A stretch of DNA of 64,000 nucleotides from positions 8,680,001 to 8,744,000 of the forward strand of contig JBHGNT010000007.1 of assembly GCA_043228905.1 (NCBI GenBank). The letters are read 5' to 3'. Shown piece by piece: positions 133-63,795 of this stretch. Each line of letters begins with the position of its first letter. Position 1 is the first letter of the stretch. A program made the position numbers and the translations under genes. The notes under the pieces are model-generated. The model was not told where the DNA came from and searched no databases. It saw only the letters and a list, made by a program, of their open reading frames with translations. The DNA is from Azolla caroliniana (lineage: Eukaryota > Plantae > Polypodiophyta).

Positions 133-351
133 CTATCAAGATTATTTTTATTTTAGTTATATATTTATCTTATTGTATACTTTTAAGGTAAAGTTTTCCT
201 ACTTCACGACAACAGTTTTACGTTCTTTTTGTAACTGATCATGCTTCCTATAAAAAGGGGCATGCAACCTTGTAAATAGGTGGGCTTGTATGAGTTAGTC
301 GTGATAACACAAATCTTGAATTGAGTATCTCTATGTCTAGACTTTGTTTAG

Positions 352-14265: not shown

Positions 14266-14296
14266 GTAGGAAGCTTACTTTTCAATGCAATATAAG

Positions 14297-21099: not shown

Positions 21100-21320
21100 G
21101 AATGTTTAAAAGAACGGCTAGCCCAATGGCTAGTTATTTCCAACAGCTAGTTAGCCCAACGACCATATCTTGGCCTTTATAAAGAGGAACTTTCTCCTCA
21201 TGTAACAATAAACTATCTTTGTATTTTTCTCCCTCTAGCTGTGACATACCAATGTATATTACTGAACAGATGTGCCTTCTCATTTTTCCTTATGGTATCA
21301 GAGCATAGACCTGCCCCTTT

Positions 21321-21648
21321 GCAAAACCCTAGATCCACCCTTCTACTGGTATGACAGCGATTGGAACAGCACTGTCCTAGCATCCACAAGAGGGAAGGGG
21401 GATTTTTTTTCCATTTGGGATGACATTGCTATGTGATTGAGAGCAAAGATAGGCCAAGTTGACAACATGGATGAGGTGTCCGCCACTCTGCAAAACCCTA
21501 GATCCACCCTTCTACTGGTATGACAGCGATTGGAACAACATTGTCCTAGCATCCACGAGAGGGAAGAGGGATTTTTTTTCCATTTGGGATGACATTGCTA
21601 TGTGATTGAGTGTAGAGATAGGCCAAGGTGAGAAGACGGATGAGGTGT
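21321..21648 (+). repeat. 169-bp tandem duplication in the Copia B leader
   Basis: gcaaaaccctagatccacc...gatgaggtgt starting at 21321 and 21490. Confidence 0.9.
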
Positions 21649-26022: not shown

Positions 26023-26281
26023 ATTGTGTGACAAGATGGGCTTCGTGGATATTTTTCGCCCATCTTTAGGGGGAGTGTTGAGAATGTTTAAAAGTTATAA
26101 CAGCTAGCCCAACGACTAATTATTTCGAACAGCTAGTTAGCCCAACAGCCATATCTTGGCCTTTATAAAGAGGAACTTTCTCCTCATGTAACGATAAGCG
26201 ATCTCTGTATTTTTCTCCCTCTAGTTGTGACATACCAATGTATTTTACTGAACAGATGTGCCTTCTCATTTTTCTTTAGGG

Positions 26282-37382: not shown

Positions 37383-37419
<37 letters not shown>

Positions 37420-37500
37420 AACTGTGTTTTTTTTTGCTGATTCTGAATCTAAAAAACACAGCAAAAAATTGAGCAGAATATCAATAGGAAAGGGTCTGAC

Positions 37501-37535
<35 letters not shown>

Positions 37536-37821
37536 AACTGTGTTTTTTGCTGATTCTGAATCTAAAAAACACAGCAAAGCAGAGGAAAGAGATTTGGCTC
37601 TGATACCAGTTAAAGGTAAAGAGGGATGTTTGAGGGAGCAGCTATTGATTGATGACATTCAACAAACAAGACTATAGTAGAGATGAGAGTAGAGACAGAT
37701 TTTTGGGTGTACCCAACCGCCTTGATTGGTACACAAGAAAAAAAGGATATTACATTAGTTAACCCTACAAAGAAAGAGGTGTGTTCACATTACAAAAGGA
37801 GGTGTCCTGTCCAGGTGAACA
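33204..37821 (-). mobile_element. Ty1/Copia element C, decayed, 3' LTR absent, inside PTH intron 3
   Basis: PBS TGGTATCAGAGCCA 37608-37595; putative 5' LTR about 37821-37610 (outer end uncertain); PPT AAGTGGGAGG 33214-33205; leader has a about 118-bp duplication with (AT)n. Confidence 0.88.
33234..37324 (-). pseudogene. Copia gag-pol (Tnt1-like motifs) with stops and frameshifts
   Basis: RFDGKGFELWK, WIVDSGASFH, LWHKRLGH, HSDVC, RTDNG, KARLVAKG, YVDDML, STTEAEY, NPADILTK. Confidence 0.93.
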
Positions 37822-41944: not shown

Positions 41945-43231
41945 CAGGAAGACAATTCTCTCTCTCTCTCTCTCTCTCTCTCGTATGGGCTTTGTGTCCA
42001 CTTTTCCTTGGGTGACACTTTGCGTGGGTGTCCATGTATGTATGTATGTTGTGTGAAGCTATGGGAATGTAATGTAAGTGTACACCCAACCATTCCTTGG
42101 GCTTCATGAGTGCACACTCCTAGGTACATCACATCCCGCTCAGCCTCCATGACAATGTGGCTATGACCCTTGTTAACCTTAAGCACACGCGATCCTCGCA
42201 GGACCCAAGGTACTACCGCATCAGCCCACAAATGGTATTTTCAAAGGTATTTTGGATTGTATACTCAAATTCTCACTTGGTGAATGGACACCGGAATTTG
42301 ATCACATGAATGTAATTTGATCACAAGACATTCATGTATTGACCTCGAATGGTATTAAATGGTATTTTGGATTGCATACTCAAATTCTCACTTGGTGAAT
42401 GGACACCGAAATTTGATTGCATGACTTCATATATTGACCCCAAATGTATTAAATGGTTTTTTGAGTCTGAGAATGTAATTGAAGGTATCAAATAAACATA
42501 TTTACGCATATTTATCTTCCAAAATGGTTGAGGATATATTACAAATGACAAAGACACAATGTGGTTCAACTCTTGAATGTAAATGGGAAGCTTTCAAGAA
42601 AGATGTTTTCTCATGCCCAAACGAATGCTTTTCTATCAAGCACAAACCTTGGAAAGGCATCAAGAAATGTAGTTCAAAGAAAAAATAGTTTAATAAGGAA
42701 TTCCATGATGCTTGAAGATGTCTTATGATTTTGGATGTAGTAAAGGATGTAATATGTGTAGAGAAATGTATCGTAGACAAACAAGAAAGATAGACTGAAA
42801 TGAACAAGAACAAAAAACAAAATACACAATACACAAGATTTACATGGAAACCCTAAACAAAGGGGAAAACCACAGGGCAATAGATCTTTACTATGTGACA
42901 GAGATACAATAGATTACAAGTCTCTGAGAATTAGAGGGTCACCACTTAGGATTCGCATAATGAGTATCACTCACTCTCTCTTTCTCTCTCTTGTCTCCTT
43001 GCTACTCTCTATGTATATTATGTTCAACGCCTTCTTCGCTACACAACTACTGCTACAATAGACCACGTGTAGTTTGCCCTAGTTCTACATATTTATAGAA
43101 GGAATAAGTTATTATTATATTATAATAATAACAGTTAATTGGCGGACAGGTCGACTCGATTAGCCGACTCCTATGTCAACTATCCAGTCAACCCGACTAG
43201 CAGACCTTTTCATTGACCATCCAGTCAACGT

Positions 43232-44320
43232 TGTCATGAAGATTTTCTGCAATGGTGTGAAAATCACATAAAACTACAAAAAGATGGAGGTCTTGAAGAG
43301 CTTTCGGATGCATTTTATCACATAAGAAATGGACATCTAAGTGTCAACTTATGTGGGTAGGAAATTTGCAAAGACAAAGAGAAAATAAAATTGTGAGATA
43401 TCCCACATAGACAAGATAAATAAGGATCTCACCATATATAAGGTCTAAGAGCAAAAGCTATTATCTCTTGTGTCTATTTGTGGAGCATAGAGAGTTCAAG
43501 GTGACTTGAACTAAGCTATTGGATGAATGGGTGTGGCTTGGCTACTTGCAAAGGTTTTGGGGAACTGGCGACGGAGCCGATGGCAACCAACATTTGACGA
43601 CCGGACGGTAACCGACATCTGGCGACGGAATCTGACAATAATCAGCATCCGGCATCCAGCGACAGAACCGATGGCAACCAACATCTGACGACCGGACGGT
43701 AACCGACATCTAGCGACGGAATCTGACAATAATCAACATCCGACATCCAGCCCAAACAGTAATCGGCATCTAGATGGATAAATCAATATATATACATATA
43801 CACAAGGAGGGAAAGTAAGGATTTGAACCTTGCACCTCCAAGTTGAGGGTCAATAGGCTTACCACTAAGCCAACACATTTTCTTGGACATATATTTTTAT
43901 CATTGTAACTTTACATGTAAATTCTCATACATGAGAGCTAAAATGAGTGACATGGTTATCATGCACCAAATGGTATACATGAGCGCCAAATGGCAAACAT
44001 GCATTTTATGAATGTCTTGTACCCTCACATGCATGAGGGCATCTATAAAAGAGAGGAGGGAAAAAGATAAAAGGACTAATGTAAAATTTTTGGATGATCA
44101 AATAAGAGACTTGTAACCCTATTGTTGATGTATCGTCTCTCTCAAATCTAAAATCAAGAGTTAAATCTTTATTTCAGTATCTCTCTCCTTCCATATCAAT
44201 CTCTCTCAATCTATCTTAAATACTTTCTCGCTAAAACTAGCATAAACTTCGAATCCTTCCGGTCTAGAACCCCGGCGGTTCCGCCTCACGATCCGCGCCT
44301 AGTGACGGATCTTCACGACA
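43232..44320 (+). repeat. 5' LTR of element D (1089 bp)
   Basis: tgtcatgaag...cttcacgaca; TATA-like CTATAAAA near 44043; GC-rich internal repeats 43560-43770. Confidence 0.93.
43819..43872 (-). promoter_or_regulatory. tRNA-type Pol III internal promoter (A box and B box) inside the LTR, antisense
   Basis: A box TGGCTTAGTGG (43872-43862), B box GGTTCAAATCC (43829-43819), 32 nt apart; degenerate copy at about 55027-55080. Confidence 0.65.
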
Positions 44321-44328
44321 TAATTAAG

Positions 44329-44346
44329 TGGTGAACCCAACGTGAA
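44329..44346 (+). promoter_or_regulatory. PBS complementary to tRNA-Trp
   Basis: TGGTGAACCCAACGTGAA, 1 mismatch to TGGTGAACCCGACGTGAA (plant tRNA-Trp 3' end from memory). Confidence 0.8.
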
Positions 44347-44392
44347 AGAGGCGGTAGGAAGGATCAAGTCGAGGATCAACCAATACTTGGAG

Positions 44393-45450
44393 ATGGCATC
44401 CTCAAGTAATCAAGCGGGAGAATTTGAAATGATGATGATAATCGTCGAACAAATGATGAGATCTCGAGACAACGATGCGAGTGTGGAGAAGGCCATCAAT
44501 CGTGTCGTAGAGGTCGAGGGTCAATTTGATGGAAGGAATGTTGCGAAGTTCCTTGACGCATACGAAGGGAGATGAATCAAAGAGATGTGTCTGAAGCACG
44601 GAAAATCACGAGTTTCAAGAGGGTGGTCTCCCACAACATCCAAAGACGCGTCATCGAGCTTCAAGAAGGTAAGATAACATGGTCCAAGTTTGAGAAAGCG
44701 ATATTAGCGGAGTTCGTGATTGAAGACTCAACGAGGATGACTCGACATGCCCTCATGAAGTGGATAGAGAAGAAAAATAAGAAGATGCGCGCCTCGAGGG
44801 TGTACGACGAATTCGACCAAATGTTTCGTCGTTTCCCCGCCATAGACCAAGTGCTACTTGAGGAGGACAAAACTTTGTACTTCCTAAAGGTTGTGGGTAT
44901 AAAGGATAGACGAGAACTGGGTACTCTCCTCGAAGATGATACCCAAGCAAATGGGCTTGTGGCGGACTGGGTCGCGGTGAAGTGAGCATGCAATAGGCTC
45001 GACAAGCGTCGTCAGTGGGTTGATGACACCGACTTGGTGGGATCGATTGTCGCGGAGAAAACTAGACAACCGAAAGTAGTTGAGCCGCCCAAACAAAGCA
45101 ACCCGGAAGAAAAGAAGATTGATGACGACATCATTGAAGAGCTAGCGAAGAAGTTCAAGATGGTCACGCTAGCCAACATGAATCATCGGGGCCCCAAAGG
45201 AAAAGAACCCTTTAGATGTGTGTGGTGCAATAGCATGGATCACATGAGAAGGGATTGCGCGAGCCTTCGAGAGGCGATCTGACAAAATATCATATACATA
45301 GATGACAACATGATTTGTTTGACTGAAACTCGAAGACCCCTACGGGTGAATTTCAGAAGAGGGGGAATGAAGAAATCTATGGAAGATGCTGAGGCGACTC
45401 ATATGGATGTGATGCACTATGTTGCAACGGCCAAAATAAGAGTCGGGTTC
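44393..45450 (+). pseudogene. gag of element D, frameshifted
   Basis: GQFDGRNVAKFLDAYE, TWSKFEKAILAEF, knuckle CVWCNSMDHMRRDC. Confidence 0.8.
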
Positions 45451-48400
45451 ATTTTGTTAGGAATTTTTCTAGGGTTAGTAACTTTCTTGTATTCTTCTTC
45501 TTCTTCTTCTCCTTCTTGAGAAGTTGGGCGTCGTAGCCATGGCGGTAAAGCTGTTAGGGTTAACTTCTTTTCTTCTAAGCGTAGCCAGCTCGAGGTTGGG
45601 GTTGTATCTTCCCTCTTTGTAATATATACACTCATATCTATTTGTGCATAAGAGTCGGTGTCGCGTGTGCATGCTCTCTCTCTCTCTCTCTCGTGTTCGG
45701 TTGCCTCCGAATCATGTCCGGAGTCGGTTTTCTTGGCGTCTCGTTCTCCCTCGCCCGAGACCCTCGTGGTCCCACCCCTTCTACACGCACGCGCGTAACA
45801 ACGCGACATCTTTGGTGAACCCGACGTGAAAGGGCGGCAAGGGAGAATGGAGTTGAAAGAAGACGACTTCGCACAACTTTTTGTTGAAGCGGTGAGGGAG
45901 TTTGGACAAGCAACAACAAGAAGAGAGACGGCGCAACAAGCTAATGAGCGAGTGGTTGAAAGAGTCGGCTGTTTCAACGGGGACAAGGTCCCATTCTACT
46001 TGGAAGCCTACAACGCGGAAATGGAGGAGTGAGACGTAGACGAGGCGTTGAGGCTGGAGTTCTTCTGTCGGGTCGTCGTCGTCCGTATGCACGAGGAAGT
46101 GAAGGAGCTCTGAGAAGCTCATAGTTCGTGGGAGGCCTTCGAAGAGGCGCTCCTGCAGGCATATGGAGGACTTCAGAATAATCGGGGACGACGCGACTTC
46201 GACCAGTGGGTGACATCGGCGAAGACCCACCAGGGCGCAACGAAGGCGTTCCGAGAGTTCAAGCGACGACTTGCTCAGCTCCCGGAGCGGGAACAAGGTT
46301 TGGTGGGGGTGGACAGAGTCATGTTGTTCGTTAAGTCGATCGACTGAGCGGAACGGGAGGCCATCGGGATTGAGCTCGAAGATGAGGACAGAGCGAATGG
46401 CCTTACGGAGGACTGGTCGAAGGTCGAAAGGGTATGCCAATGGCTAGATGACGAGCGGGCCGAGAAGGCTAGGAGGAAGGCGCGCGACGGCGTGCCATCA
46501 TAGCGGGAAGAAGCCGAATGGCAAAGAGAGTCAGCAAGGCTCGGCTTCGGGGCCAGGTTTGCAAAGGCGTATGCAGCTCTCACGGCAATCCTTGAGGCAG
46601 AGGAAAGAATGAGGCCGCAAGCCGACGTCGAGGAGACGGTCTTGCCCCACGAGATGGCAGAAGATTGGTACGACGGTACCACAAGAGAGGGTGCAGAACA
46701 AAACGCCCTCTCGGCTTGCGGAGACGGAACGACCAAGGACAAGGCTGAGATACCGATCGTAGAATCGGAACGTTGGGACCGGTGGTTTCGGGCATGTTAG
46801 CCCGAAACTCCGGACATTGGAGAAGCAAGCCTAGGTGGGGCTTGCGCGATCGGTAAGAAGACGGCCACCAACTATGAGGAGCCAGTGCCTATATACAAGG
46901 GCGCAAATAGGACGAGCGATTCTATGCGTCTTCCCACACTTGCTCCCAAGACGATGGCAATCGGGCCCGAGTGCCCACGTGAGTCCCAAGAGGAGGAAGG
47001 CGGTGGTGTGAGACCTAGAGTCGTCGGCGAGATTATACAAGGAAGGAGCGAACAAAAGCCCTCGGAACCGATTCCGGAGAACTTGGCATTCAGGCTCTTA
47101 TGCCCATGTGAGACCAAGGAGATGGATGACAGTATCGAGGATTCTTGGCACGATGCCAGTGAAGATGGATGGGAAATGGCCCGCAGGGAGGTCGATGGAG
47201 GAACCGGGACACGACCCGAACGGGGACTGAACCACGCGGCATTCCGATTCGGGTGGAGCGCGATCCGGTCGTGGATTGTTCGACCGGGGCCAAAATCGGC
47301 TTGAGGGTGCTGATACGGGAGAGGGTGCGGAACGAACCGCCCTATTTTAAATGGGGAGAAAGACCGACCGGGCTAAGGTCGGGAATCGAAAGGAAGGTGA
47401 TCAAGGGTTCAGAACGACCGGCGGTTTCGGGCACGTCAGCCTGAAACTCCAGACATTGGAGAATCAAGCCTAGGCGGGGCTTGGTTGATCACAGTGCGGA
47501 TGTTATCCACCGACACCACTAAAAGGGTCGGTGGCCTGGGACGAGTCGCCGGAGGACGTTACGAAATCGGTTACCCCACATCTTGACCGGAGACTTCGGC
47601 AGTTCAAGCCAACAAGGCAACGTGAGTCCGAAAGAGAAGGGAGATGGTAGGGGAGTGTAAGGAAGGGATCAACGACGACGGGGAAAAATGAAAGACGCGG
47701 TTGACTAAAGTATGGGTCCTCCACACTGATTCCCGAGACTTAGGCAGTTGCGTCTGAGAACCAACGAAAGACCTAAGAGACAGAAAGTGGTGGCGAGGGC
47801 GCGGAGGTCACGACCAATACAACTGATCCGGAAGCAAAGAACGAAGACCGGTCCTATGGGTCACCTCACACCGGGCTAGAGACTTCGGCGGTCGGCATCG
47901 GATCCGACGTAAGACCAAGATACTGACGATGGCGGCAGGAGAACGGGAACCGGCAATCCAGAGAGTGACGGATGGACCTGGACGAGAACCGGGCGGAGCG
48001 GACTTCCAGATAACCAATTCAGGAGGGAGGAGAGAGCAGGCCTATAGAGAAGCTAGGAACACGGTACGTCAATACCACGGGAGAGGGTGTGGAGCGAGCC
48101 ACCCTCTCGACTTGCAGAGAAAGACGACCCAGGACAAGGGTCTGATATACGAAAGCCCAAGGAGAATCCTTCACACCGGATCTAGAGACTTCGGCCGTCA
48201 ACAGCAGAGCCGACGTAAGACCAAGAGACTGACGGTGACAGCGAGGGACGAGGGCAAAGGCAGCGAAAGACCGGTCCTATGGGATCCTCACACCGATCTA
48301 GAGACATCGGTAGTTCAAGCCGACGTGGCAACGTGAGCCCGAGTGTGAAGGATAGTGGCAGCAGGAAACGGGAATCGGCGATGCGGGCAACGTGGATGGG

Positions 48401-50036
48401 CGATCCTATGGCGATCCTCACACCAATCTGGAGACACCGACAGTTCAAGCCGATGTGGCAACGTGAGACCGAGTGAGAAGGATGGTGGCGGCAGTGAACG
48501 GGATCAAGCAGGAGGGGCGAAGGTGGAGTGGCAAGGGGGTATCGGGCCGGCACGACGGCCACTAACTGAACTCGGGCCTTCCGGCAAAGAAACAAAGGGG
48601 TGAGTCGGGAACCGACCCGACCGGAAGACAATGCGGAAGTCGGGAGAAGGGAAGAGAGACGTTCATATGGGATCCTCACACCGATCCGGAGACACCAACA
48701 GTTCAAGCCGACGTGGCAACATGAGACCAAGTGAGAAGGATGGTGGCTGCAGGAAACAGGACCCGACAACACGAAAGAGTGGATCAGGAGCCGACAAGAC
48801 AGGAGCTGGCAAGGCCAGAGTTGACAAGGGCGAAACCCTTACCGACCGGTTATGGGTTCGGAAGGGAGCCGGTAAAGGGTGAGCAAGGAGCGGTGTGCCA
48901 AGACGGATGGGCACAACCGGGAGTGGATCGAGAGACGTGCATGTGGTCATTAAGGGCCGAAGGAAGCATGAGTACGGGATGGTGTTCGGCACATGGCAGT
49001 GCCAGGAACGAGGTAATAGGCACACAATGGACTACACGGGTCAGAGACCGGAAATGATATCATGGGCCGGAGAAGGATCCTCCACACCCGCTTCGGAGAT
49101 CTCAACGGCCTAGTCAAAGTGGCAACGAATGGCGTGGCAAGCCAAGCCTGAGATGACAAGTTGGTTGGGGCGAGGGGACGACGGCAAGCAAAAGGCTCCA
49201 GACCGGTCGCAGCAGCGCGAGACGAAAGGGAGCCAAGCGGGCTACTACGGGGTGTTCCTTGGACACGGAGGACACCGGTATGCGGAGAGGAAGGTGATGC
49301 ACGATCTGGCCGGGCAAGGGCTGACAACACATGCGAAAAGGGTCACCGGAGTTGGCACGGCGGTGCCGAACAAGGGCAACGAAAGACGGCACACGATGGT
49401 GCCAGGAACGGGAGTACAGATGCAAAGGGTGGCCGCTGGTTCAAGTGATCTTGCGTAGAAGGCCAGAGAGGGATCCTCCACACTGGTTCCAGAGACCTTG
49501 GTAGTTCGACCGCCATGGCTATGTAAGACCAAGGAGAAGGTAGGTGGTGACGAGGGGACGAAGGCGATGGAGATCAGCGTGGGACAAGAACCGGGACGAC
49601 GCGAAGGTCGACGGAGGCCAAGCGGGCCATTATGGGTGCTCCTCGGACGAGGGACACCATGTATCCGGAGGAATAGGAAGCGTGCAGGCGGTCAAGAGAA
49701 GGGCCAACAAGGGAGCACGCGTAGGAGGGATCGCGGCAAACGACCTATCGACGGGTCGAACGAGCCTACGGGGAGGCAAACGTGGAGACGGAATTTTTGT
49801 TAGGAATTTTTCTAGGGTTAGTAACTTTCTTGTATTCTTCTTCTTCTTCTTCTCCTTCTTGAGAAGTTGGGCGCCGCAACCATGGCGGCAAAGCTATTAG
49901 GGTTAAGTTCTTTTCTTCTGAGCGTAGCCAGCTCGAGGCCGGGGTTGTATCTTCCCTCTTTGTAATATATACACTCATATCTGTTTGTGCATAAGAGTCG
50001 GTGTCGCGCGTGCATGTTCTCTCTCTCCCTTCCTCT

Positions 50037-50118
<82 letters not shown>

Positions 50119-50231
50119 TTCGGTTGCCTCCGGGTCATGTCCGGAGTCGATTTTCTTGGCATCTCGTTCTCCCTCGTCTGAGACCCCTATGATCGTGCCC
50201 CTTCTACACACACAAGCATAACAATGCGACA
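45451..50231 (+). mobile_element. Non-autonomous gag-only LTR element E nested in D; left junction apparently deleted
   Basis: Direct repeats about 45451-45808 and 49793-50231 ending GCGACA; PBS TGGTGAACCCGACGTGAA 45813-45830; gag-like GCFNGDKVPFYLEAYNAEM similar to D gag; no pol motifs; followed by ACGT 50232-50235. Confidence 0.85.
47569..49530 (+). repeat. Array of about 9 degenerate about 55-bp repeats separated by variable GC-rich spacers
   Basis: Consensus GGGATCCTCACACCGATCTAGAGAC...CAGTTCAAGCCGACGTGGCAACG at about 47570, 47713, 47857, 48163, 48280, 48409, 48668, 49075, 49469. Confidence 0.8.
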
Positions 50232-50235
50232 ACGT

Positions 50236-53200
50236 GTTCTTGATAGCCACGTGACTTTGTCCTTGAGGGAACTACTTGGCATTACGAAGAAGGAGTTCCA
50301 TGACAAAATCGTGGACCTTGTAAAAAGAAAGAGGCAACAATCGGACGAGGAAGAAGAGAAGCCACAAAGAGCAAAAGCAAATGCCATAACGATGGCAAGA
50401 GACGAAGTCGATGAAGAAATGGTGAACAACCACTATACTCGACCTCATTGGGCACGAGCGACAACAGAGACGTCAGTGAAGATCGGGGAGAAGAAAGAGA
50501 CCGTGGTAGCCTTAATCGACCACGGCTCGGAGATCAACCTCATGTCAACCGACTTCTACAAAAAAGGAAGATGGCCAATCAATACAAATCATGGATGGAA
50601 GATTCACGCGGCAACAAAGACTACGGAGGACTTGTAAGGAGCTTGTCCCAATGTTAAAGTCGCGATTGGGGATGTGGAGATGGATCAACACTTCTTCGTG
50701 CAAGAATCGGCGTCGCATCCTGTCATCCTAGGACAATCGTATATCACATCATCCCGGATGGAGACCAATGTGTTCGATAATGGAGCAGCCTTCGCGTGAA
50801 TCAAGAGTCTTAACAATCAAAGATCTATTCAATTCCTAACGGTGCGAGCTAATCATGAAAGAAATCGAGATAGTCTTGGAGGCGAATCCCCGGATTTTTA
50901 GAGCGGACTATTGAAGCACGGGGCACAAATAGTTTGAGCGATCACAAGTCCCCACAAAGGAGTAGAGTGCGTGGATTGCGAGGAGAAGCAACATGTGTCA
51001 CACCTAGTGGCGCATGTAAACCAGTACTACCCGAGAAGAAGGACAACCATCGGATACAAGACTTCGAGAAGATGCTTAAAGAAGAAAACATAATAGAAGA
51101 AGAAGAGTTTGTGACTCATATTATGGAAGAAGCCTCATTTAACGACACCATCGGCGAAATCGAGGAAGTTGTGGATTTGAGCTATCTTCATGATGAATGC
51201 GTGGTTTCGGTTAACTCCATCAACATGTATGCTATCATCGATGAATACCATTGTGGCATCTTGATGGAGGAAGCTGAAGTTAACACAAAATATAAAACGG
51301 TGGATAAGAAGATCAAGCCAGTTGTGGTTCCACTACCGGAAGATAGCTGGCAAAAGATGAAGGAAGTCGTGAATTATCCAAGCTTAAGGGATCCGAAGAC
51401 AATAGGTCATGTCTTCACCGAAGAGACGAAGGGAAAGCTATGAGTTGGAAGGGAGGATTTCCTCCTCCCTGAAGAAGAGTGAATGTTTCGCAACATGCTT
51501 GAGAGACATGGAAAGGCTTTCGCATTTTTCCCACAAGAAATCGGATGTGCTGATCCAAGGATGATAGAGCCGATGGTGATCTTCATGGTGCCGCATGTGC
51601 CTTGGAATTTGAAACCGATACCAGTTCCAAGAGCGCACCTTCCGAAGCTGATCAAGCTCTTAAAGGAGAAAGTGAATATGGGTATTCTAGAACCGTTGAA
51701 TGCTCCTTACTCTAATAGGTGGTTCATGGTGCCGAAGAAGAATGGATCATTGCGATTCATCCAAGATCTTCAACCTGTCAACAAGGTGACAATTTGAAAT
51801 TCTGGAATCGGTCCAAGCGTGAACGAATTTGCCGAGGCGTTTGCGGGCCAGTCCATCTACTCCATTGGTGATCTCTACTCCGGATATGACCAATTCCAAT
51901 TGGCGATTGACAATAGTGACATTACAACCATGAGGACTCCAATCGGGCTCGTGCGGATGTGTACCTTACCTCAAGGTGCAACGAACTCGGTGGCTCATAT
52001 GGTGAATGCCATGAATAAGGTCTTGAAGGATTGCATCCCGGACATCACGATGCCATTCTTGGATGATATTCCAATAAAAGGATGTTCGGATGAAGAGAAG
52101 AATGAATCAGAAGATAAGGAAGGGTGTAGAAAGTTCGTCGCGGATCATATGAAAGATTGCAAGAAGGTGCTCCAAAGGCTCGAAGACGTGAATTTGACAT
52201 TTTCGGGAGAGAAATCCGCATTCGGGCAACCAGAGATCTTGGTGGTAGGTCACTTATGTGGAGCATATGGCTGGAAGCCTTCGCCATCAAAGGTGAATGC
52301 AATCTAGGACATGAAAGAAGAATGTGTAAACCAAACAGAGGTTCGAAGGTTCCTTGGAGCATGCACATTTTACCATTTTTGGATTCCGCACTACGCCCAT
52401 GTTGCCGAGCCTTTATATGGATTGCTAAAGAAAAGAATGAAGTTCGAATGGTGAGACGAGCACATGAACACGATGCGAAGATTGAAGAAACTACTTCTTG
52501 AAGCTCCAACACTAAGAAAGGCTGACTATACCAATGGAAAGCCGATTTATGTGATTGTAGATACGAGCGCAACCGGAATCGGGTGGGTCATCAACCAAGA
52601 AGGAAAAGATAATGTGCGGTATGCCATCCGATTCGGAGCAAAAGTTCTCAGCGAACAACAACAAAGATACGCCCATGTCAAGTGGGAACTTTGGGGTATT
52701 GTGTCGGCAGTGAAGACGGACAAAGATTACCTGATCGGGTCGGAAGTGATAATAGAGACAAATTGTCTCCCAATACTCGGAATGATATTGGGATGTGCGA
52801 CCCCAGATTTAGCTATGCTAAGGTGGATCGCCTATATCAAGTCTTTAAGCCCAGAGATCCGCCATATTGCAGGCAAGAAGAACGCCATGGCTGATATGCT
52901 GTCGAGGGCAAGATTTGAGAATGAAAGTGACATGGTTTCGGAAGATGAAGACGTTACCCTCGACTTCTTCAAGATGGCTCGACTATCGGAGGAAGACAAG
53001 GACACACTAACCCTCCACGCCTTCAACAAGGACGAGTACGAAGGAGAGTGGTTACTGATCGGCCGATTCCTAAAAACAATGTTGGTGGATGCTTCGTTGA
53101 CGAAGGAGGAGGCCCTACAAATCCAGAAGAAAGCTTACGAATACTCCTTGAAGGGAGGCTTCCTTTGACGACACCCAAAAAGAAGGACAGGAATACCACG

Positions 53201-54358
53201 TTGAGTGGTGGTGAAGAAAGAAGAGTAAGTGACGTTAATGATCGAATTCCACAGGAGTGCCTGGGCAGGTCATAGAGGAACATGGGCGGCGTTCGAGAAG
53301 TTGAAGGAGAAGTATTGGTAGCCAAGCATGTACAAAGATGTACTCCATTTTGTGTCCACATGCGAAACATGCCAAGTACATTCGAATATACGTCATCATG
53401 ATGAGCTACGATCGACATACCCGCTCACTATACACTTCAAATGGATGGTGGATCTGGTCTCAATGCCAATGGGAGTGGGACAAATGAAGTACATAGCTCT
53501 AGCAAGAGAAGACTTGACAAATAAGACGACGTCAGCTGTTTGCAAATTTCTACTTGAAGAGGTTGTCTGTCGATACGGATGTGTGGGGAAGATAGTCGTC
53601 GACCGAGTGGAGTTGGATGCACACGAAGCAACAAAGCTTTTCGAACGACTAGGCGTGAAGCTCTCCCTCATGACTACCTACAATCCATAAGCGAATGGGA
53701 AGATCGAGCGAGGGCATGGACCCATCGTCAAAGCCATCGTACAAGCATGCAACGGTCGAGTCGGGAATTGGCCACGACTATTGCCCTATGCCTTGTGGGC
53801 CGACAAAACGACACACAACTCGGTGATAGGGTATATGCCAATGGAGCTTATGTATGGACAAAAGCTGGTGATGCCCATCGAAAGGACGATCACCTCATGG
53901 GTAGTGATACCATGGGAGAACGAGATGAGTAGAGAAGAATTATTAACGGCACGGATAAGGCAACTTGAAAGGAGACTTGAAGATCTAGAACATGCGCGAA
54001 AAATGATGGAGGCAGCCTGAGTGAAGAACAAAATTCGGTTCGACAAGACGCATCGACTACATCCCAAGAAAATCGAAGAAGGAGATTGGGTATTGGTCTA
54101 TGACAGCAACCTTGACAATCAACACAACACAATAAGAAAGTTCGCAAGAAGATGGTTCAGACCGTATGTGGTGATAACTGCCAACGACAATGCCACAGAC
54201 CACCTTGCAAAGCTAGATGGATCAAGGTTGGCCATACCCATTGCGAGAAAAAGAGTAAAGTTTTCAAGAAAAGACAAGACGAGGATCCTGACCTCGATCA
54301 CCTCGACGATGAAGATAGTACGATGGATGTGAATGAGGACGTGGAGGAATCTGATTGA
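50236..54358 (+). pseudogene. pol of element D (protease, RT, RNase H, integrase), many stops
   Basis: ALIDHGSEIN; DLYSGYDQF, LPQGATNS, PFLDDIPIKG; IVDTSATGIGW; CETCQ, KWMVDLV, NGKIERGH, PYALWAD. Confidence 0.92.
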
Positions 54359-54430
54359 TCACCGTAGCCGAAATCTCACACTCTCTCTTCTTGGCACGTA
54401 CCAGAGGACGTGCGGTTTGGTGGGGGTGGA

Positions 54431-55528
54431 TGTCGTGAAGATTTTCGGCAATGGTGTGAAAATCACCTAAATCTACAAAAAGATGGAGGTCTTGAAGAGC
54501 TTTCGAATGCAGTTTATTACATAAGAAACAGACATCTAAGTGTCAATTTATGTGGGTAGGAAGTTTGCAAAGACAAAGAGAAAATAAAATTGTGAGATAT
54601 CCCACATAGATAGGATAAATAAGGATCTCACCATATATAAGGTCTAAGAGCAAAAGCTATTATCTTTGTGTCTATGTGTGGAGCATAAAGAGTTCAAGGT
54701 GACTTGAACTAAGCTATTGGATGAATGGGTGTGGCATGGCTACTTGCAAAGGTTTTGGCCAACCAAAACCGGACTGGCGATAGAGCCGGTGGCAACCGGC
54801 AACGTAACCGGCATTCGGCGACTGGGCGGTAATCGGCATTTGGCAACGTAACCGGCATCTGGCGATCGGACGGTAACCGCATACGGCAACCGACGTCATC
54901 CGGCGACGACAACCGACAACTAGATGGATAAATAAATAAATAAACATATATACATCCGGCGATCGAACGATAACCGCATCCGGCAACGGTGACCGACAAC
55001 TAGATATACACAAGGAGGGAAAGTAAAGATTTGAACCTTGCAACTCCAAGTTGAGAGTCAATAGGCTTACAACTAAGCCAACACATTTTCTTGGACATAT
55101 ATTTTTATCATTGTAACTTTACATGTAAATTCTCATACATGAGAGCTAAAATGAGTGATATGGTTATCATGCACCACATGTAATACATGAGCACCAAATG
55201 GCAAACATGCATTTTATGCATGTCTTGTACCCTCACATGCATGAGGGCATCTATAAAAGAGAGGAGGGAAAAAGATAAAAGGACTAATGTAAAATTTTTG
55301 GATGATCAAATAAGAGACTTGTAACCCTATTGTTGATGTATCGTCTCTCTCAAATCTAAAATCAAAAGTTAAATCTTTATTTCAGTATCTCTCTCCTTCC
55401 ATATCAATCTCTCTCAATCTATCTTAAATACTTTCTCGCTAAAACTAGCATAAACTTCGAATCCTTCCGGTCTAGAACCCCGGCGGTTCCGCCTCACGAT
55501 CCGCGCCTAGTGACAGATCTTCACGACA
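54431..55528 (+). repeat. 3' LTR of element D (1098 bp)
   Basis: tgtcgtgaag...cttcacgaca followed by ACGT. Confidence 0.93.
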
Positions 55529-55789
55529 ACGTATCCCTTACTTGGTTCATTCAACCAATACAGTCAACTACCTAGTCAACTCTCCATTTTCTCTAGTAAG
55601 TGGACTATCGAGTCGACTCATTGGTCGATCCGATCAATCATCCTGAATTCAACTTGTTGACTCCTCCAATTCGACTACCGACTTCTCCCATTAGGAGGGA
55701 CACATTCCTAACAATATGGCAGGGCATGGCAGTATCCACAAGACACTTATGAAGATTTGACAACTTTTTTTTACCCCATATGGAGTTGG

Positions 55790-56210
55790 ATGTAAAAGGT
55801 TGCATCCAATCATGTTTGACATGTCAACGAGTCAAAGCTCAGTGTGGATGACCGTATGGCTTACTACAACCCATATCAATACCTACTCAACCATGGGATG
55901 TGGTAAGCATGGATATCATGGTGATCATCCAATCTCTAAACAAGCTCACTTCATATGAGCAAAACCACCTCTCACAACACTCTAAGTTGCCAAATTGTTC
56001 TTCAAAAATGTATTTAAATATCTTGGCATGCCTATAATTATCGCGTTGGATAGGGATTCACAAATTGCTAGGCACACAACTCTGAATTTTCGAGTCCATG
56101 GATTATCCCCAAATAGATGGTCAAGTGGAAAGGGTAAGCCATGGTAATAAGGACTACATTCATTGTTATGTGTAGGCATATAAGAAAGATTGGGTGGATC
56201 ATATTGATGA
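55790..56210 (+). mobile_element. Very decayed Gypsy integrase-like remnant
   Basis: Fragments such as GMPIIIALDRDS and DGQVERV in broken frames. Confidence 0.4.
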
Positions 56211-58089
56211 GAGGTGCTCCAGTTGGTACATCAATAAAAGTGTGTTTGAAGCATTGGCGGCATCCCCCTTTTCCTTGTTCAACTTGCTCCTAGTGGATTT
56301 ACCACCCATTCCCTCTTAAGCTACACCCACCATTCTCTAGTTTTTTTGATTGAGTGTGAAACTAACTATCTTGTGTGTTTTTCTTTGTGCACATGCCATG
56401 ACATGACAATGTCTACTTAATGTCATGTATACCTTGAGCCGAAGTGTTTCCATTTTCTTAATGCAACTATATTTGTAGATCATATCTTCAAGGTAGAATT
56501 TGCACACCAACAACATTATCTCATTCCTCAATTCTCGATACTCTCCACTTGGTTTGAAAGGTCTTCCCTTGTTACTACTAGTTAATTCATTTATTAGAAA
56601 TCCATAAGGTATGACCATGGTGTCGACCATCTAAACGAAGTTGACCATCTAAACGAATTATCATTGGCCCAAGCTTTAAATATTTCACCCGTTTATGGGC
56701 ACTTTATCTTTACATGTTGGAGATGATTCATTGCTAGGGTGCTAAACAAATTGTTCATCTTTAAGGTGAAAAAATAAAAACTTTACCAATTTTACAAGAG
56801 ATTTTACTTCTGGTCCTCAAGCCTAAGACATTAGTGTTATTTGCAAGATAGACAACTTGTATATTTCCATCTTGCTTGTCCGTTTCCTTATACTTTTCAC
56901 CTTTACATTTGTCTTTGGGATGCTAGACACATTCATCCTTAGGCTGCACTAAAGTCAAATCACCTTTAGAATGTTATAGATGATTCATTCTTAAGGTAGG
57001 AAAATGAATACTTTTGCAAAAATGATCACTTTCAGCCCAAGTTACCTAAAACCTATGATCTTTGTTGTTCTATTATCAAAGACACTTTATCCAATTAAGA
57101 TAGGAGGACAAAAGATAGCAATAGTGAAGAGTCTTGTATGCTTTCTATTCTTGTCCCTTTATATTTATTCTTCACCTTTTGATTCATCTTTATATGGATG
57201 ATTCGTCTCAAGATGATTTGTTTTGAGATTTGTCAAAAGAAATTGTTGATCTAATTATACAAAAACCCTAATTGATCAAGAAGCACAATTAATAGAAATT
57301 TCACTTAACTAACAACTCTTTAACTACTTAGATTAGTAAAGGAACTCTTTAATTTCTTTCATAGAAAATTGAAGGGTACCAAAAAAATTCTAGCCCCCAA
57401 AACAAATCCCTAATTTTTGTCTTTTATAGTTAAATGACCATGAGGTAATTTCTAGTTTTAGATGGTTTATGCAAAGGTCATCATTTGGGTGGTAGAGGCG
57501 ATTTGTTCTTAGGCTACAAAAAGATTGCGCACTTATTACCAATTTTGTTAAAATGGTCACTTTTGGCCCATGTTGGTTTCAAATCACACAAGATCGAGCA
57601 CAAAAGGGGTTGAAATTGGAAGCTGAGTACTTTAAGGTTTTCGAACTTGCGTCTTTCACAAAAAAAAATACTTTTGTAATTACGTGAAAGACGTAGAAAA
57701 TTAGTTATCATACCTTTACCATGATTCTAAGAACCAAAGCATAAGATTGTATTCAGACATTTTAAGCACATAAAATAATATAGATATAAGGAAAATTTCT
57801 ATCAGTATTGATATGCACATTGTGAACACGTTTTTTCCAATTCGATTCCTCACTTTATATATAGTCTCCCATAGTAATAAGAAACAAAATGAAGTCAAAT
57901 TTAATTTGTAATTAGAACTTATGACGAAAGCAAAAGATACAAAGATATGTAAAACAGAAATGCATAGATCAAAAGTTACAAAGCTAAGTATTTTTCCGAG
58001 TAAATAGTGAATGATGCATACTATATTGGAGACTCCAAGTTTATAGAGGGCTAACTTGTTTTTTTTTCCAAAAAAATATGCTATCCATT

Positions 58090-61000
58090 AGTTAGGAAGA
58101 AATACATGAGATATCATATGTACAAGGGCTAGGCCTCAACCTACTTCCATTTGTGGATTGATCTCTGTCCACATAACTTGGCACTTCCTTAACAATGAGT
58201 GCTAGCTCCTTGTTCACCGCATCACTCCCAAGGGGGATTTTGTTGATATATTTCGGTAGTGATGTGTGCGAACACACTTAGGACTATAGGGGTATTTTTT
58301 CTCTCTTTAGGATGTTTTTTCCCCTTGTCTATAGATACTCGCATAACCCTAAAGTGGGGAAGTTTTTGTGATTCAAAACGAGAACCCAACAATGGTATCA
58401 TAGCAACTAACCGACGTTTGAGCAGCAACGCAATGAGTGAACAACAAGGTGACGACCCCCATTTGCAGTCCGTGTGTGCCATATGTGGTGGCATTTTTCT
58501 GCTGCTGTAAAACAAGTTTCTACATGTTTTCTTCCTTTGTGTGTGGTTTCAGATGCGTTTTTTTGCTTCACACCGATTTAATCCTACTATAAGTCTCCTT
58601 GAGTTTTCTACGACCTTCCTACAACCCTCTTATGTGCGGTTGCTGCACAAAAATTAGATTTGCTTCCTTTTCTCTTCATTGGTTCATTTTCCAAGTCAAA
58701 GAGGTACATTATTCCTTTTTATTCATTCCGTAGTCCATTTTTTGCATCAAAACATGTTTAGTCAATGGCCATGGCTAAGGGCAATGATGTATTTCGGATG
58801 CTTGTTGTCGACGATAAATTGGATGGAACAAATTACCCTCTTTGGGCTTATATGATGTGTCATGTATTAGTAGCAAAAGGGTTCTGGGATGTGGTTTATG
58901 GGGTTGAAAAATGTCCTGTTGTTGTGAACACAAACACTAATGGTATTGATTCTGTTGAGGATGTTGATCATCCTACTCATGCTCATGATGCAATTTCTAT
59001 TGTACCAAATGCAGAGCAACTTCGTTGGGATCACAAAGATGCTCAAGCACATGCTTTGATAGCTTTGTTTGTGAAACATGCCACTATTCCCCATATTCGC
59101 TCTTGCAAGACAGCAAAGGATGCTTGCGATACTCTTACCACTTTGTACCAGACAAGAAATGAGGCTTGTGTTGCTTATCTCCAAATACAGTTGGAGAGTG
59201 AGCACATGAACGAAGGTGATTCTATGGACAATTTTCTTACAAAAATCAAAGATTTAAAGGAACAATTAATTTTTGTTGATGAAATGATACCAGATAATTC
59301 ACTTTTGTAGACAGTTCTAAATGGTCGTCCTGATTCATATAAGAGTTTTGCTTCTAGATACCCTTTGTTTAATGATGAAAGGTAATCCCAATGCCTTATC
59401 GTTCGAGGAGTTAGTTTCTGTTTTGTTATAGGAAGATCAGTCTAGGCAAAATAGGTCTATTATGCATGTTGCAGATGAAGCTTTCCTAGCTAGTTAGAAG
59501 GGCAAAGGTAAATGGAACTCATCTGCTAACAAGCAGAGATTTGCTAATACTTCACAAGTGAATGAAAAAAAACAAGAGCAGAAACAAAAATAGTTTTGCA
59601 AATACTATAAAGAAAATGATCCAAAATTGGCTGCACAAGAGCCAAAGAAAAACAAGCAGGACTGGTTGTTGCAAAAGTCTCTGCACCGAAAACAAAGTTT
59701 GCAAATCTTGTGTAGAATGAAGATTGGGGATTTACTACTATTTGCAGTTTTGACCCATCTTCACTTGAACAATGTATGTCTGTTGTCAAATCAGATGTTT
59801 GGTACGTCAACAGTGGAGCAACCAAACATATTATCTCACAACGCAATTTCTTCACTTCATTGGAGCCTGCCCCTATAGAGAATATTGTCACACGCACCAA
59901 CAACCCATCGTATCTAGTTATGGGTGTTGGTAAGACCATTTTGACTATTATTCATTGTATTTCTTTCACCTTGTCAAATGCTTTGTTTGTGCCAGGGATC
60001 AAGATTTAAAGTTTGTTGTGAGATTCAACATTAGCCAAGATGGTTCAGTTAGAGTTAGTAGAAATTGTAGCTTGTTCATAGTAATGTCTGTGGTCCTATC
60101 CAAACACATTCTCTTGGGAACTGTCTTTACTTCTTGACTTTCATTGATGAATTTTGTAGTCATGCATGGGTATATCCATTGAAGGTAACGTCCGAAGTGT
60201 TTCTGTGCTTCAAATAGTTTCTACCTTTGGCCGAAAATTTGTCAACATGTAAAATGGGCACCCTCAATTCTGATCGAGGGGGGGAATATATGTATTTTGA
60301 TTTTAATGCATTTCTAGCTGAACATGGGATAAAACATCAGTGTATAGTGCCATATATACCTCAAAAAAATGGAGTTGCTGAAAGAAAGAACAAGTCACTC
60401 ATGGAAATGGCGAGGTGTATGATCAAAAGTCAGGCTTTACTACATAGTTTCTAGCTTAAGGTTGTCATGTATGCAACATATGTACTTAACAAATGTCCTC
60501 TAAATCATTGCACTCTATCACTCCATATGAGGCCTGGCATGGCCGCAAGCCATATGTTGCTCATTTGCGTGTTTTTAGTTGTTTGGCATATGCATTAGTG
60601 CTAAACAACAACGCAAAAAATTGGATGATAAAGCAATGAAATGTATTTTTGTTGGATACAGCTTTGAAAGTAAACTTGGCTATCGTTTGTATCATCTATA
60701 GACTAAATGCATTCTGGTTAGCTGTGACATTGTTTTGTGGAGGATGCAGTTCAACCATTGCTTTCATGTACTAAGGAGACATTAGTTATCTCCAGATATG
60801 TGTATGACACTTTTTTGCCTCTTTTTACAAGTGGATAGTTAAGTGTTGGCCCAATTGAGGCACCTTCTCAACCTTTGGAAGCTACTCATAATGATGTAGA
60901 TTATTACATTTCTGATGCAGACTTACATGATGATGTAGAGGAGGCACTAAATGGTTGTTGCATACTTTTGCAAGATAGCAAATTAGATATTCCTTTGTCA

Positions 61001-61397
61001 TACCATACTCGTTGACGTTCTCATAATGTTTCTTTTGCATCAGATTGTTATGTTATGTTTGTCTAATCTTTTGATGAGAATGAGCTAGTTTCTTTTGATG
61101 TAGCACAAAAATCAAAAAATTGGATGGATGTTATGCAATCAGAATATGAGGCTATTATGAAGATTGGTACATGGTCTTTATGTGACTTGCCTCTTGGCAA
61201 GAAGGCTATTGGCACTAAGTGGGCATATAAGTTGAAGCGTAAACATGATAGAAAAGTTGACAGGTATAAGGCTAGGCTTGTTGCGAAAGGTTATGCCCAA
61301 GAAAATGGCATTGATTTTGACGAGACCTTTGCGCCAACCTGCCATATGACTACTATTCGTAGCATATGCGCAATTGTAGCTCATCATGGTTGGAATG
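58090..61397 (+). mobile_element. Old Ty1/Copia element F, truncated within RT by later insertions
   Basis: LTR ending CCAACA at 58391 (start approximate); PBS TGGTATCATAGC at 58393; KLDGTNYPLW, WYVNSGATKH, SDRGGEY, PQKNGVAERKN, KARLVAKG; breaks at HHGWN where tgttggag begins. Confidence 0.85.
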
Positions 61398-61719
61398 TGT
61401 TGGAGTCTAAGATCATCAATGTGGAAACATAAACAACACATTGAGATGAAGATCACCGAGTTAGCAGGTGAAGGCAAGATCAAGAAGACAGAATGAGAGA
61501 GAGAAAGAAAGAAAGAAAGAAAGAAATATTAACGTCTTCTAAGGCCAGAATTGGCCCATGAGACAATTGGTTTACAACAAAATGGGATATTTACCCATTC
61601 ATCGAAAGTAAAAATAAAATAAAATAAAAATAGAGCTTAAGCTAAATAGTTCTAGTAAAATAACAAACATGTTCTACAATGAAATGGCTTTATACTAAGT
61701 CTAGTTTCATTTCCATCCA

Positions 61720-63795
61720 AATCTTGTTGGGCGTGGTCTCGGTTACTCGAACCCACTTCTTAGTCCTTACCGGCTCCACCGGTGGCACCAAAAGAGTCAA
61801 CCATTGAGCCACGACCATCATAATTTCTTGTTGTTCTGCACTAATTCTATCACCCTTCGCAAGCAATCGACCAATCCACTTGCACCCCTGTGTATGTAGC
61901 AATGATGAACCCGACTTTGTTCTTTGGCATTGCTGGGGGTCGGGGGTACACGAACCCATACTCGTGGAGGACACGTTGTCGCGAAAATACGACAAGGACA
62001 CGTGAACTTTGAGGCAAGACCCCGGGGCCTCCGACCGGAAGATATCTTCCTACTGCCTCGTTTCACATCGGGTTCACCAAAGATGTCGCGAAAATACGAC
62101 GAGGATACGTGAACGTTGAGGCAAGACCTCGGGGCCTTTGACTAGAGGATATCAAATTTGTGTATTTATGTACTAAGAATTAACCAAAATGAGAAAGATT
62201 AACAAATTTCATTAACAAGTAGAAAGAAAGATTACAATTAATCCCAAGATTGGGATTACAAAAAGTTTGCTAATGGAGATGGCTAGAGTAATAGATTAGA
62301 AGAAATGAGATATGAATTTAATTAGAATATTAGGGTTTTTAGCTTCAATTCAAAAATTAGGGTTTTTGAGTTGTATGGCTTTGATTAGGAAATTAGGGTT
62401 TACTTGAGAGATATGGCTTCTGTAAGGAAATTAGGGTTTTGAGTTCCGTAAGGAAATTTAGGGTTTTTTAGTGTTATGGCTTTCCTAGGGAAAATTATAG
62501 TTTATGAGTGTTATGGCTTCGATAAGATAAGGGAGGTAAGAAGGAAAAGAAAATAATATATGGAGAGAGGATGAGTGTAGGAAAAAAAATGGAATTTTAT
62601 ATGGAGTTCTCCCTTGATCATCTACATGTCCACTTTTTGTTGCATGGCCTCTACTTTTAGTTGCTTAGCTTTTTCTTTTAGTTGTATCTATTTTTAGTTG
62701 CATGCGACTATCCACATGACCTTTACTTTTTGCATGCACTCCAACTTTAGTTGCTTGCGTCCACATGGCCTTTACTTTAATTCTCTTCACTTTATTTTAG
62801 TTTGTTGCATGATCCAATCTTCTGTCCGTCCGTGTCCAACCTCGTCCGGTAGCCGGTTCCGCCCAATCGTCGAATCCCTCACCGGTTGGTTCTGGTTCCG
62901 ATTTTGCTTGTCGGCCGATTTCGGTTTGATTGCCGACCGGTTCTGATTCCGGTTTGCTTGCTGACTGGTTCCTGTTTTGCTTACCGGTCAGTTTTCGGTT
63001 TTGCTTATCGGCCGGTTTCCAGTTTCCAATTTTGGTTACCAGCCGGTTTCCGGATTTGCTAACCAGCCGGTTTCTAGTTTGCTTATCGGCCAGTTTCCGA
63101 ATTTGCTTACCGGCCGGTTTCCGATTTGCATACCGACCGGTTTCCGAATTTTGCTTACCGGCCAGTTTCTGGATTTTGGGAACATGGCCACCATCATCCA
63201 TTGAGACAAAGTGGCCAAAGTGTTCTTAGCACAAATGAAAAATGAGGGAGCTCAAGGTGCTTATATAGCTAGGGCCTTAAGTTTCCTATCTATGTGGGAT
63301 AGTTCTAATTTCCCTATCTTCTCAAACTTCATTTTCATATAACTTGATATGTATTTCTCCATTTTGTATATAGTAAAATATGTTTTGAAGCTCTTGAGTA
63401 TATCCATCTTTCTATAGTAAGCTACTAATCTAATCTATAATAATTATTTAATTATTTTTTTATATAGTGTGTGAAGATTCACACGACAACGTGCCACTTC
63501 TCTGAAACAGGGGGTCCTTGCCGCCCTGTGTCCAGTGAGCCTTACTAGCGAGGGAATACTTGTCAAAAAACTTGGTTAGTGTTTCAAGAGAAGGGTTCTC
63601 GATGGAGTAGATGTGCCCTTCTGACAGTCCGATTAGAGCGTAGATGGCTTCCTCCGTTATGACTTCCGTGTCAATTTTCTACACAACTTCTTCTGATTCG
63701 TCGTGCGGCGGTGCCTCTGCTATCCTTAGGAAACCTCCTAACCCATGTTGGTTGTACCATTTCTTGGTTGTTTCGGAAAGTGCCATAGGTTCCAT
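61720..63795 (-). pseudogene. Homolog of element A ORF2 from a diverged family member, split by element H
   Basis: MEPMALSETTKKWYNQHGLGGFLRIAEAPPHDE, EVITEEAIYALIGL, REVARVLHEYGFVYPRPPAMPKNKVG and VAQWLTLLVPPVEP align to 7093-7640. Confidence 0.88.
61977..63488 (-). mobile_element. Internally deleted tRNA-Trp-primed LTR element H: full 5' LTR, PBS and last about 70 bp of the 3' LTR; TSD ACGT
   Basis: LTR 63488-62084 (TGTCGTG...CGCGACA); PBS TGGTGAACCCGATGTGAA 62079-62062; duplicate LTR end 62046-61977; ACGT at 61973-61976 and 63489-63492; LTR layout resembles D (ATCCCACATAGATAGG motif, GC-rich ACCGG repeats). Confidence 0.88.

What the first reader, a model, noticed from the sequence alone, without database searches (positions are those of the whole stretch)
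43228..63492. Three tRNA-Trp-primed Gypsy insertions all sit at the palindrome ACGT: a candidate sequence-specific plant retrotransposon lineage
Seen: D is flanked by ACGT (43228-31, 55529-32), H is flanked by ACGT (61973-76, 63489-92), and the one intact end of E is followed by ACGT (50232-35). The three targets are unrelated: a solo LTR, a gag-pol and an accessory ORF. Removing H plus one ACGT restores the host frame REVARVLHEYG, homologous to REIARVLHEYG in element A, so the duplication is exactly 4 bp. All three share the TGGTGAACCC(G/A)A(C/T)GTGAA PBS and LTRs ending CGACA, yet have different LTR sequences. Known: most plant LTR elements make 5-bp TSDs of variable sequence, as the other elements here do (TTTAG, ATATG). 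Inference: the integrase recognises ACGT, a CpG-containing word and the bZIP/G-box core, which may steer insertions into young CpG-rich transposons.
Basis: partly seen in the sequence, partly recalled or inferred. Interest (0 to 1): 0.85.

Follow-up and report, generated by a model that had tools for sequence, protein, structure and literature searches.

The report
Known plant retrotransposon inserting at CG
These are retrotransposon copies, likely of the already described Phygy lineage of non-seed plants, that sit at 4-base sites with CG in the middle; ACGT is the commonest such site but not the only one, so the pattern is real and largely known.

Summary
Observation confirmed. D and H are flanked by a 4-bp ACGT duplication, E's intact end abuts host ACGT, and ACGT is not part of the LTR. 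The lineage is not new. REXdb (Neumann 2019, PMC6317226) describes Phygy as 4-bp TSD (100%, motif NCGN), tRNA-Trp PBS (81%), 7.7-10 kb, with no extra domain. D matches on TSD, size and domain content. Its PBS matches if my recalled tRNA-Trp identity is right, and no Phygy reference sequence was available for a tree. Strict ACGT is refuted: of 25 LTR-flank junctions in related contigs, 19 are NCGN but only 6 are ACGT, and a fourth element at window 211 has another flank. ACGT is still the mode: the majority flank of 43-57 contigs reads ACGT in 4 of 4 sequencing runs. None of the 25 flanks starts with T or ends with A, which points to a palindromic V-CG-B preference. Named relatives occur in liverworts and a fern. 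The integrase most likely reads the CG-centred site itself (inferred), and a G-box/bZIP link is unsupported. Low interest, with a small refinement of a known motif.

The parts
43228..43231 (+). D left target duplication, ACGT
43232..44320 (+). D 5' LTR (TGTC...CGACA)
   Evidence: K2P 0.08 to the 3' LTR overall, 0.025-0.056 outside the tandem-repeat middle
44329..44346 (+). D primer binding site, 18 nt, one transition from the clade form
44347..45451 (+). D gag, decayed, cut by E and by a deletion
45452..45808 (+). E 5' LTR, 5'-truncated
45813..45830 (+). E primer binding site; exact reverse complement of an 18-nt CCA-ending small RNA filed as miR894
45831..49794 (+). E internal region: decayed gag-like start, then GC-rich repeats; no pol seen (non-autonomous)
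49795..50231 (+). E 3' LTR, also lacking its 5' part
50232..50235 (+). ACGT target word of E, part of D's gag
   Evidence: loose ends before 50231
50232..54330 (+). D gag end, protease, RT, RNase H, integrase; 11 stops in 51252-54269; no chromodomain or aRH hit
54421..54430 (+). D polypurine tract
54431..55528 (+). D 3' LTR
55529..55532 (+). D right target duplication, ACGT
42757..55713 (+). Host of D: 656-bp solo LTR of another family, with 5-bp ATATG duplication, split by D
61973..61976 (+). H target duplication, ACGT
61977..62046 (-). H last 70 bp of the 3' LTR, joined to the gag start at a GATATC microhomology
62062..62079 (-). H primer binding site
62084..63488 (-). H full 5' LTR
63489..63492 (+). 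H target duplication, ACGT
134..211 (-). Fourth element of the clade: first 78 bp of an LTR; flank 212-215 is ACAG, not ACGT
   Evidence: (90% to L039 over 78 bp)

Best explanation
D, E and H are decayed Ty3/gypsy LTR retrotransposon copies, likely of the Phygy lineage, that sit at 4-bp CG-centred sites, and their integrase is inferred to cut a palindromic V-CG-B word (V = not T, B = not A) with a 4-bp stagger, ACGT being the commonest form. Shown: the paired duplications at D and H, the LTR/PBS/PPT anatomy, RT-RH-IN order without chromodomain or aRH, and the flank spectrum. Inferred: reverse transcription is primed by tRNA-Trp (identity recalled); a symmetric intasome bends the flexible central CG step and reads the outer bases directly, as retroviral integrases do; E, and the element that gave H, were moved by an integrase of the same clade; off-motif flanks such as ACAG and CTGC arose later by CpG decay. 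Because V-CG-B words are about 8-10 times denser in young GC-rich elements than in old DNA, nesting would follow passively.
For: REXdb additional file 5: Phygy, 186 elements, TSD 4 bp (100%, NCGN), tRNA-Trp 81%, 7,656-9,968 bp, no extra domain; main text names Phygy as the exception with an NCGN preference. D net of E is 7,517 bp plus about 450 deleted. Related loci share the PBS, a GGGGG-type PPT and TGTCG...CGACA ends. 19 of 25 flanks are NCGN against 3.3% in neighbouring DNA (p about 1e-23); 4 more are one CpG transition away. None of the 25 starts with T or ends with A, though 58% of background NCGN words do. ACGT is enriched within NCGN (6 of 19 against 8%, p=0.003). Majority flank ACGT in 4 of 4 runs. 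D's RT lies in a 100/98 clade with Riccia and Adiantum proteins.
Against: No Phygy reference sequence was available (REXdb files 1 and 3 unreadable), so the defining tree placement is untested. The tRNA identity is recalled, not shown. The 25 junctions are one-sided, come from collapsed contigs, mostly from one series of assemblies, and give no paired duplication (L003 has two different flanks). Two flanks (ACTT, CCTT) fit neither NCGN nor a single CpG transition. Nothing here shows that the integrase, and not a host factor, does the reading.
Confidence: 0.85

Rival explanations
1. One reading: a distinct lineage, or a derived branch in this genome, whose integrase strictly requires ACGT.
For: 3 of 3 elements in the finding; majority flank ACGT in all 4 runs; one further E-type end joined to an ACGT at 54396 in 3 of 4 runs. 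With a 25% ACGT rate, 3 or more of 4 has p about 0.05, so this genome may be more ACGT-rich than its relatives.
Against: A D-type end joined to CCGG at 47549 in 4 of 4 runs (side 26-30, letters between not known); a 2-contig ACGG flank in X1; the fourth window element has CTGT; 19 of 25 related flanks are not ACGT. Overall agreement 0.37-0.38 lies below a strict-ACGT simulation (0.44-0.45), but the tool's definition of agreement is not known to me and the value also falls below my loci-like simulation (0.40-0.41).
Confidence: 0.05
2. A sister clade of Phygy that shares the 4-bp CG-centred site and Trp primer but would branch separately from the Physcomitrella elements.
For: REXdb defined Phygy from one moss; the clade here spans liverworts and a fern at about 45-87% protein identity, and no named Physcomitrium protein appeared among the listed hits.
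Against: Each structural feature that could be checked matches Phygy; Phygy is already reported in the liverwort Apopellia. Absence of named moss hits is expected if such elements are not annotated as genes (inference).
Confidence: 0.07
3. Site choice comes from a host factor, a bZIP-type protein or a methyl-CpG reader, that tethers the intasome to ACGT/CpG words, with the integrase itself indifferent.
For: ACGT is the bZIP core (recalled); H sits in CACGTG; the motif is centred on CpG.
Against: A bound factor would be expected to place insertions at an offset, not exactly on its own site (inference); D and E are not in G-boxes; no bias beyond the 4 bases; no chromodomain. In PFV and MLV, single integrase residues shift the local target bias, including towards C...G.
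Confidence: 0.03

Closest known systems
Phygy, non-chromovirus Ty3/gypsy clade (REXdb; Neumann et al. 2019, PMC6317226)
   Same: 4-bp duplication with central CG, Trp-type primer site (identity recalled), about 8 kb, polyprotein filling the internal region of D, no chromodomain, no aRH.
   Different: Defined from Physcomitrella patens only; the host here is unnamed and relatives include liverworts and a fern. The published motif is NCGN; the flanks here narrow it to V-CG-B with ACGT as mode. E and H are non-autonomous or deleted forms.
TatI (REXdb)
   Same: 4-bp duplication and tRNA-Trp primer.
   Different: TatI carries an aRH domain (100%); D has no such hit and no NCGN motif is listed for TatI.
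Selgy (REXdb)
   Same: Short non-chromovirus of a non-seed plant with 4-bp duplication (96%).
   Different: tRNA-Ala primer, about 5 kb, no sequence motif listed.
Fungal Ylt1 / SN_1006 non-chromodomain gypsy clades (PMC2864245)
   Same: Chromodomain-less gypsy elements; D's RT motifs resemble them as I recall them, and unnamed proteins at 34-42% identity form the next branches.
   Different: Those proteins bear no organism names, so the link is a lead only; the passages read gave no target motif for Ylt1.
PFV and MLV integrases (PMC4477651)
   Same: 4-bp duplication, palindromic local bias, flexible central pyrimidine-purine step; PFV is among the closest solved integrases by sequence.
   Different: Their bias is described as a statistical logo; here about three quarters of flanks keep CG.

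Membership tests
Phygy | Ty3/gypsy order PR-RT-RH-IN between LTRs | tested here: met
   Pfam RVT_1, RT_RNaseH, Integrase_H2C2 in order; weak protease hit upstream
Phygy | 4-bp duplication | tested here: met
   D and H paired flanks; 5-bp words differ
Phygy | NCGN target motif | tested here: met
   3 of 4 window elements; 19 of 25 related junctions
Phygy | tRNA-Trp primer binding site | tested here: inconclusive
   E's 18-nt site is the exact complement of a CCA-ending small RNA; that this tRNA is Trp is recalled, and searches gave no confirmation
Phygy | No chromodomain, no aRH | tested here: met
   No such Pfam family on P0002 or among the domains listed for 120 relatives
Phygy | Size 7.7-10 kb with polyprotein filling the interior | tested here: met
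   D about 8.0 kb after removing E and adding back about 450 bp; not true of E and H
Phygy | RT-RH-IN clusters with REXdb Phygy sequences | not testable with these tools
   Reference FASTA too large to read; tree holds no Phygy reference
TatI | aRH domain | tested here: not met
Selgy | tRNA-Ala primer and about 5 kb size | tested here: not met
   Size about 8 kb; the primer difference rests on recalled tRNA identity
Chromovirus (Tcn1, Galadriel) | C-terminal chromodomain | tested here: not met
   Integrase ends shortly after the GPY-type motif

The most novel reading that the evidence does not exclude
Across mosses, liverworts and ferns this clade carries a CpG-reading integrase with a defined palindromic code, V-CG-B with ACGT as mode. 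The code would be set by a shortened target-contacting helix (D-R-G-E-L, one residue shorter than Ty3's) and could sense CpG methylation, so that copies pile into young, undecayed retrotransposons and lose their targets as these age.
Probability: 0.25. Interest if true: 0.55.

Novelty: new member of a known kind. Interest (0 to 1): 0.2.

Why it matters
Sequence-selective integration is rare among plant LTR retrotransposons; REXdb names Phygy as the only exception it found. The existence of such a lineage is therefore known. What this adds is modest: the motif looks narrower than NCGN, the clade reaches liverworts and a fern, and the integrase has a distinctive helix start that can be mutated. 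If direct CpG or methyl-CpG readout were shown, it would explain nesting into young elements without chromatin tethering and give a natural model of base-specific integration.

Tried and rejected
No whole genome is held, so no genome-wide logo. (first protein) used the wrong frame and found nothing; repeated correctly. Viral contigs gave nothing by protein or pattern, nor did genome contigs. No tRNA gene in the window. Earlier scan findings: none. Phygy reference sequences could not be had: REXdb files 1 and 3 too large; Physcomitrium RLG transcripts cut at 400 letters and without the motifs sought. Cluster look-ups gave no organism names. 'ACGT is part of the LTR' rejected. Rows dropped before counting: one search listed 29 non-PBS, non-PPT flank rows in loci; 4 are sub-repeats inside an LTR (L023 534, L035 4155, L041 7143, L042 7026). 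L028 333 was first dropped too and then restored as a decayed true end, so one search's statistics are on 24 rows and the final count on 25; with all 29 kept, NCGN is 20 of 29. The agreement figure could not be calibrated. Summed depths are not copy numbers.
Full report
Observation. The junctions are as reported. D runs 43232-55528 with LTRs of about 1.1 kb (87% BLAST identity; K2P 0.025-0.056 outside a variable repeat block) and ACGT on both sides; the 5-bp words differ. H lies on the minus strand at 61977-63488: one full LTR, a primer site, a few gag bases, then a deletion at a GATATC microhomology into the last 70 bp of the second LTR, with ACGT on both sides. Taking out H and one ACGT gives REVARVLHEYG, matching element A's accessory ORF. 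E sits in D's gag. Its 5' end went with about 450 bp of D (comparison with L001), so it has one flank only. Contigs of uninserted D-family copies run through host gag into that ACGT in 3 of 4 runs (15, 17 and 17 contigs), so it is host DNA. LTR ends at the primer site are followed by TAAT or TCTT, and 3' LTR starts follow a polypurine tract, so ACGT is not part of the element. Three identical 4-mers by chance has p=2.5e-5.

What it is. D encodes protease, RT, RNase H and integrase in gypsy order, with 11 stops in the pol stretch and no chromodomain or aRH hit. It is 26% identical to element A's polyprotein. Named relatives are from Riccia sorocarpa, R. fluitans, Calypogeia fissa and Adiantum nelumboides; the closest (up to 87% over the pol protein) are unnamed metagenome proteins. 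An RT tree of 41 rows puts D in a 100/98 clade with the Riccia and Adiantum proteins, far from A, whose branch is long. The host of the window was not identified; a non-seed land plant is inferred. The 80 best of 256 related metagenome loci show a nearly constant primer site, a GGGGG-type polypurine tract and TGTCG...CGACA termini.

Comparison with the literature. REXdb (PMC6317226; I read passages, section 9 and additional file 5 whole) says TSD sequences are highly variable except in Phygy, which prefers NCGN, and lists Phygy as 186 elements, 4 bp (100%), tRNA-Trp 81%, 7,656-9,968 bp, no extra domain. D, net of E and with the deletion added back, is about 8.0 kb. TatI shares 4 bp and Trp but has aRH; Selgy uses tRNA-Ala and is about 5 kb. 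PMC6911290 (passages) also reports 4-bp TSDs as commonest in Phygy, GC-rich centres in 4-bp TSDs, and Phygy nested in Tcn1 in moss. PMC12885004 (passages) reports Phygy in a liverwort. The defining test, tree placement among REXdb Phygy sequences, could not be run because additional files 1 and 3 are too large to read; file 1 lists each element's TSD and may already hold the refinement below. That the primer is tRNA-Trp is recalled; what a call shows is that E's 18-nt site is the exact reverse complement of a CCA-ending small RNA listed as miR894 and mapped to gypsy repeats in PMC5846777 Table 3 (passages).

Is it strictly ACGT? No. In the fetched loci 25 LTR-to-flank junctions were kept from 29 rows (4 were sub-repeats inside LTRs): ACGT 6, CCGT 5, ACGC 3, ACGG 2, CCGC 2, GCGG 1, then ACAG 2, CTGC 1, CCAT 1 (one CpG transition from NCGN) and ACTT 1, CCTT 1. 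NCGN is 19 of 25 against 3.3% in adjacent DNA (p about 1e-23). None starts with T or ends with A, though 58% of background NCGN words do (p=6e-8 for the 19), and ACGT is over-represented within NCGN (6 of 19 against 8%, p=0.003). These are one-sided flanks from collapsed contigs, mostly from one series of assemblies. In runs that hold the window's own DNA, flanks beyond D's LTR end pool to a majority ACGT followed by unrelated letters in 4 of 4 runs (46, 43, 57, 43 contigs; three samples; 24 of 74 rows shown). The 15 joints shown of 891 include a D-type end at CCGG (4 of 4 runs) and an E-type end at ACGT (3 of 4), both with short sides and unknown letters between. The window itself holds a fourth element of the clade, starting at 211 on the minus strand (90% to L039 over 78 bp), flanked by CTGT. 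The best description is a palindromic V-CG-B preference with ACGT as mode; this genome may favour ACGT more than its relatives do.

How it most likely works. Shown: anatomy, 4-bp duplication, flank spectrum. Inferred: the integrase makes a 4-bp staggered cut across a CG step. For retroviral integrases a flexible central pyrimidine-purine step and residues of the alpha-2 helix and C-terminal loop set the local bias (PMC4477651, passages). Here the second catalytic aspartate is followed by R-G-E/D-L in 81 of 93 relatives with a scorable integrase (120 examined), and the profile aligns to Ty3 with a one-residue gap at this point. That is a candidate determinant only. Bases outside the four show no clear bias, and only H lies in a G-box, which argues against bZIP tethering. 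V-CG-B words are 47 and 38 per kb in A and E, 15 in D's pol, and 4.6-4.9 in older DNA; ACGT alone varies far less (1.1-4.5 per kb). Passive nesting into young elements is thus plausible, more so for the wide motif than for ACGT, but untested. Methylation dependence could not be tested.

Novelty. A plant gypsy lineage with Trp priming and a 4-bp CG-centred target is in print. Searches for a follow-up on the motif (open-licence library only; listings, plus passages of PMC13469084) found none that narrows NCGN or ties it to integrase residues. Verdict: real, a new member of a known kind, interest 0.2.

Noticed in passing
window 45813-45830 (also 44329-44346, 62062-62079): The primer site is the exact complement of the abundant plant small RNA filed as miR894, which ends in CCA and so looks like a tRNA 3' fragment; PMC5846777 maps it to gypsy repeats and asks whether it silences them. 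It could target this clade's primer site.
   Followed up: partly
window 45452 and 49795: Both LTRs of E lack their 5' part and homology starts at the same TTTTG run; the polypurine tract is missing too (compare L065). Two deletions ending at nearly one point, or a conversion event; unexplained.
   Followed up: partly
window 352-10233: Element A: young gypsy (LTR K2P 0.007, 5-bp TTTAG duplication) with an open 1,956-aa gag-pol frame and a long 3' accessory ORF broken by stops; no aRH hit in Pfam. A relative of its accessory ORF is H's host.
   Followed up: partly
window 1-133 and 55533-55713: The fourth element's LTR is interrupted after 78 bp by DNA resembling the solo-LTR family that hosts D: the two families appear nested in each other.
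   Followed up: partly
window 51252-52361: The RT of this clade has an insertion of about 16 residues just after the FLDD motif relative to Ty3 and caulimovirus RT.
   Followed up: no
window 12809-13129 and 13528-14295: A 22-24 bp tandem array precedes an ORF with a PROPPIN (ATG18-like) Pfam hit, the only clear host gene piece among the ORFs scanned.
   Followed up: no
window 21113-26281, 33234-37600 (minus), 58393-61400: Decayed copia elements with TGGTATCA-type primer sites.
   Followed up: no
L020, L022, L032, L043, L069: Contigs with two primer sites or repeated gag starts suggest tandem or self-nested copies; L032 shows an insertion just behind a host primer site. Collapsed assembly could mimic this.
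   Followed up: no
protein P0349: An RT of this clade (62% identity) is filed under the bacterium Kitasatospora herbaricolor on a 1.5-kb contig; probably plant contamination.
   Followed up: no
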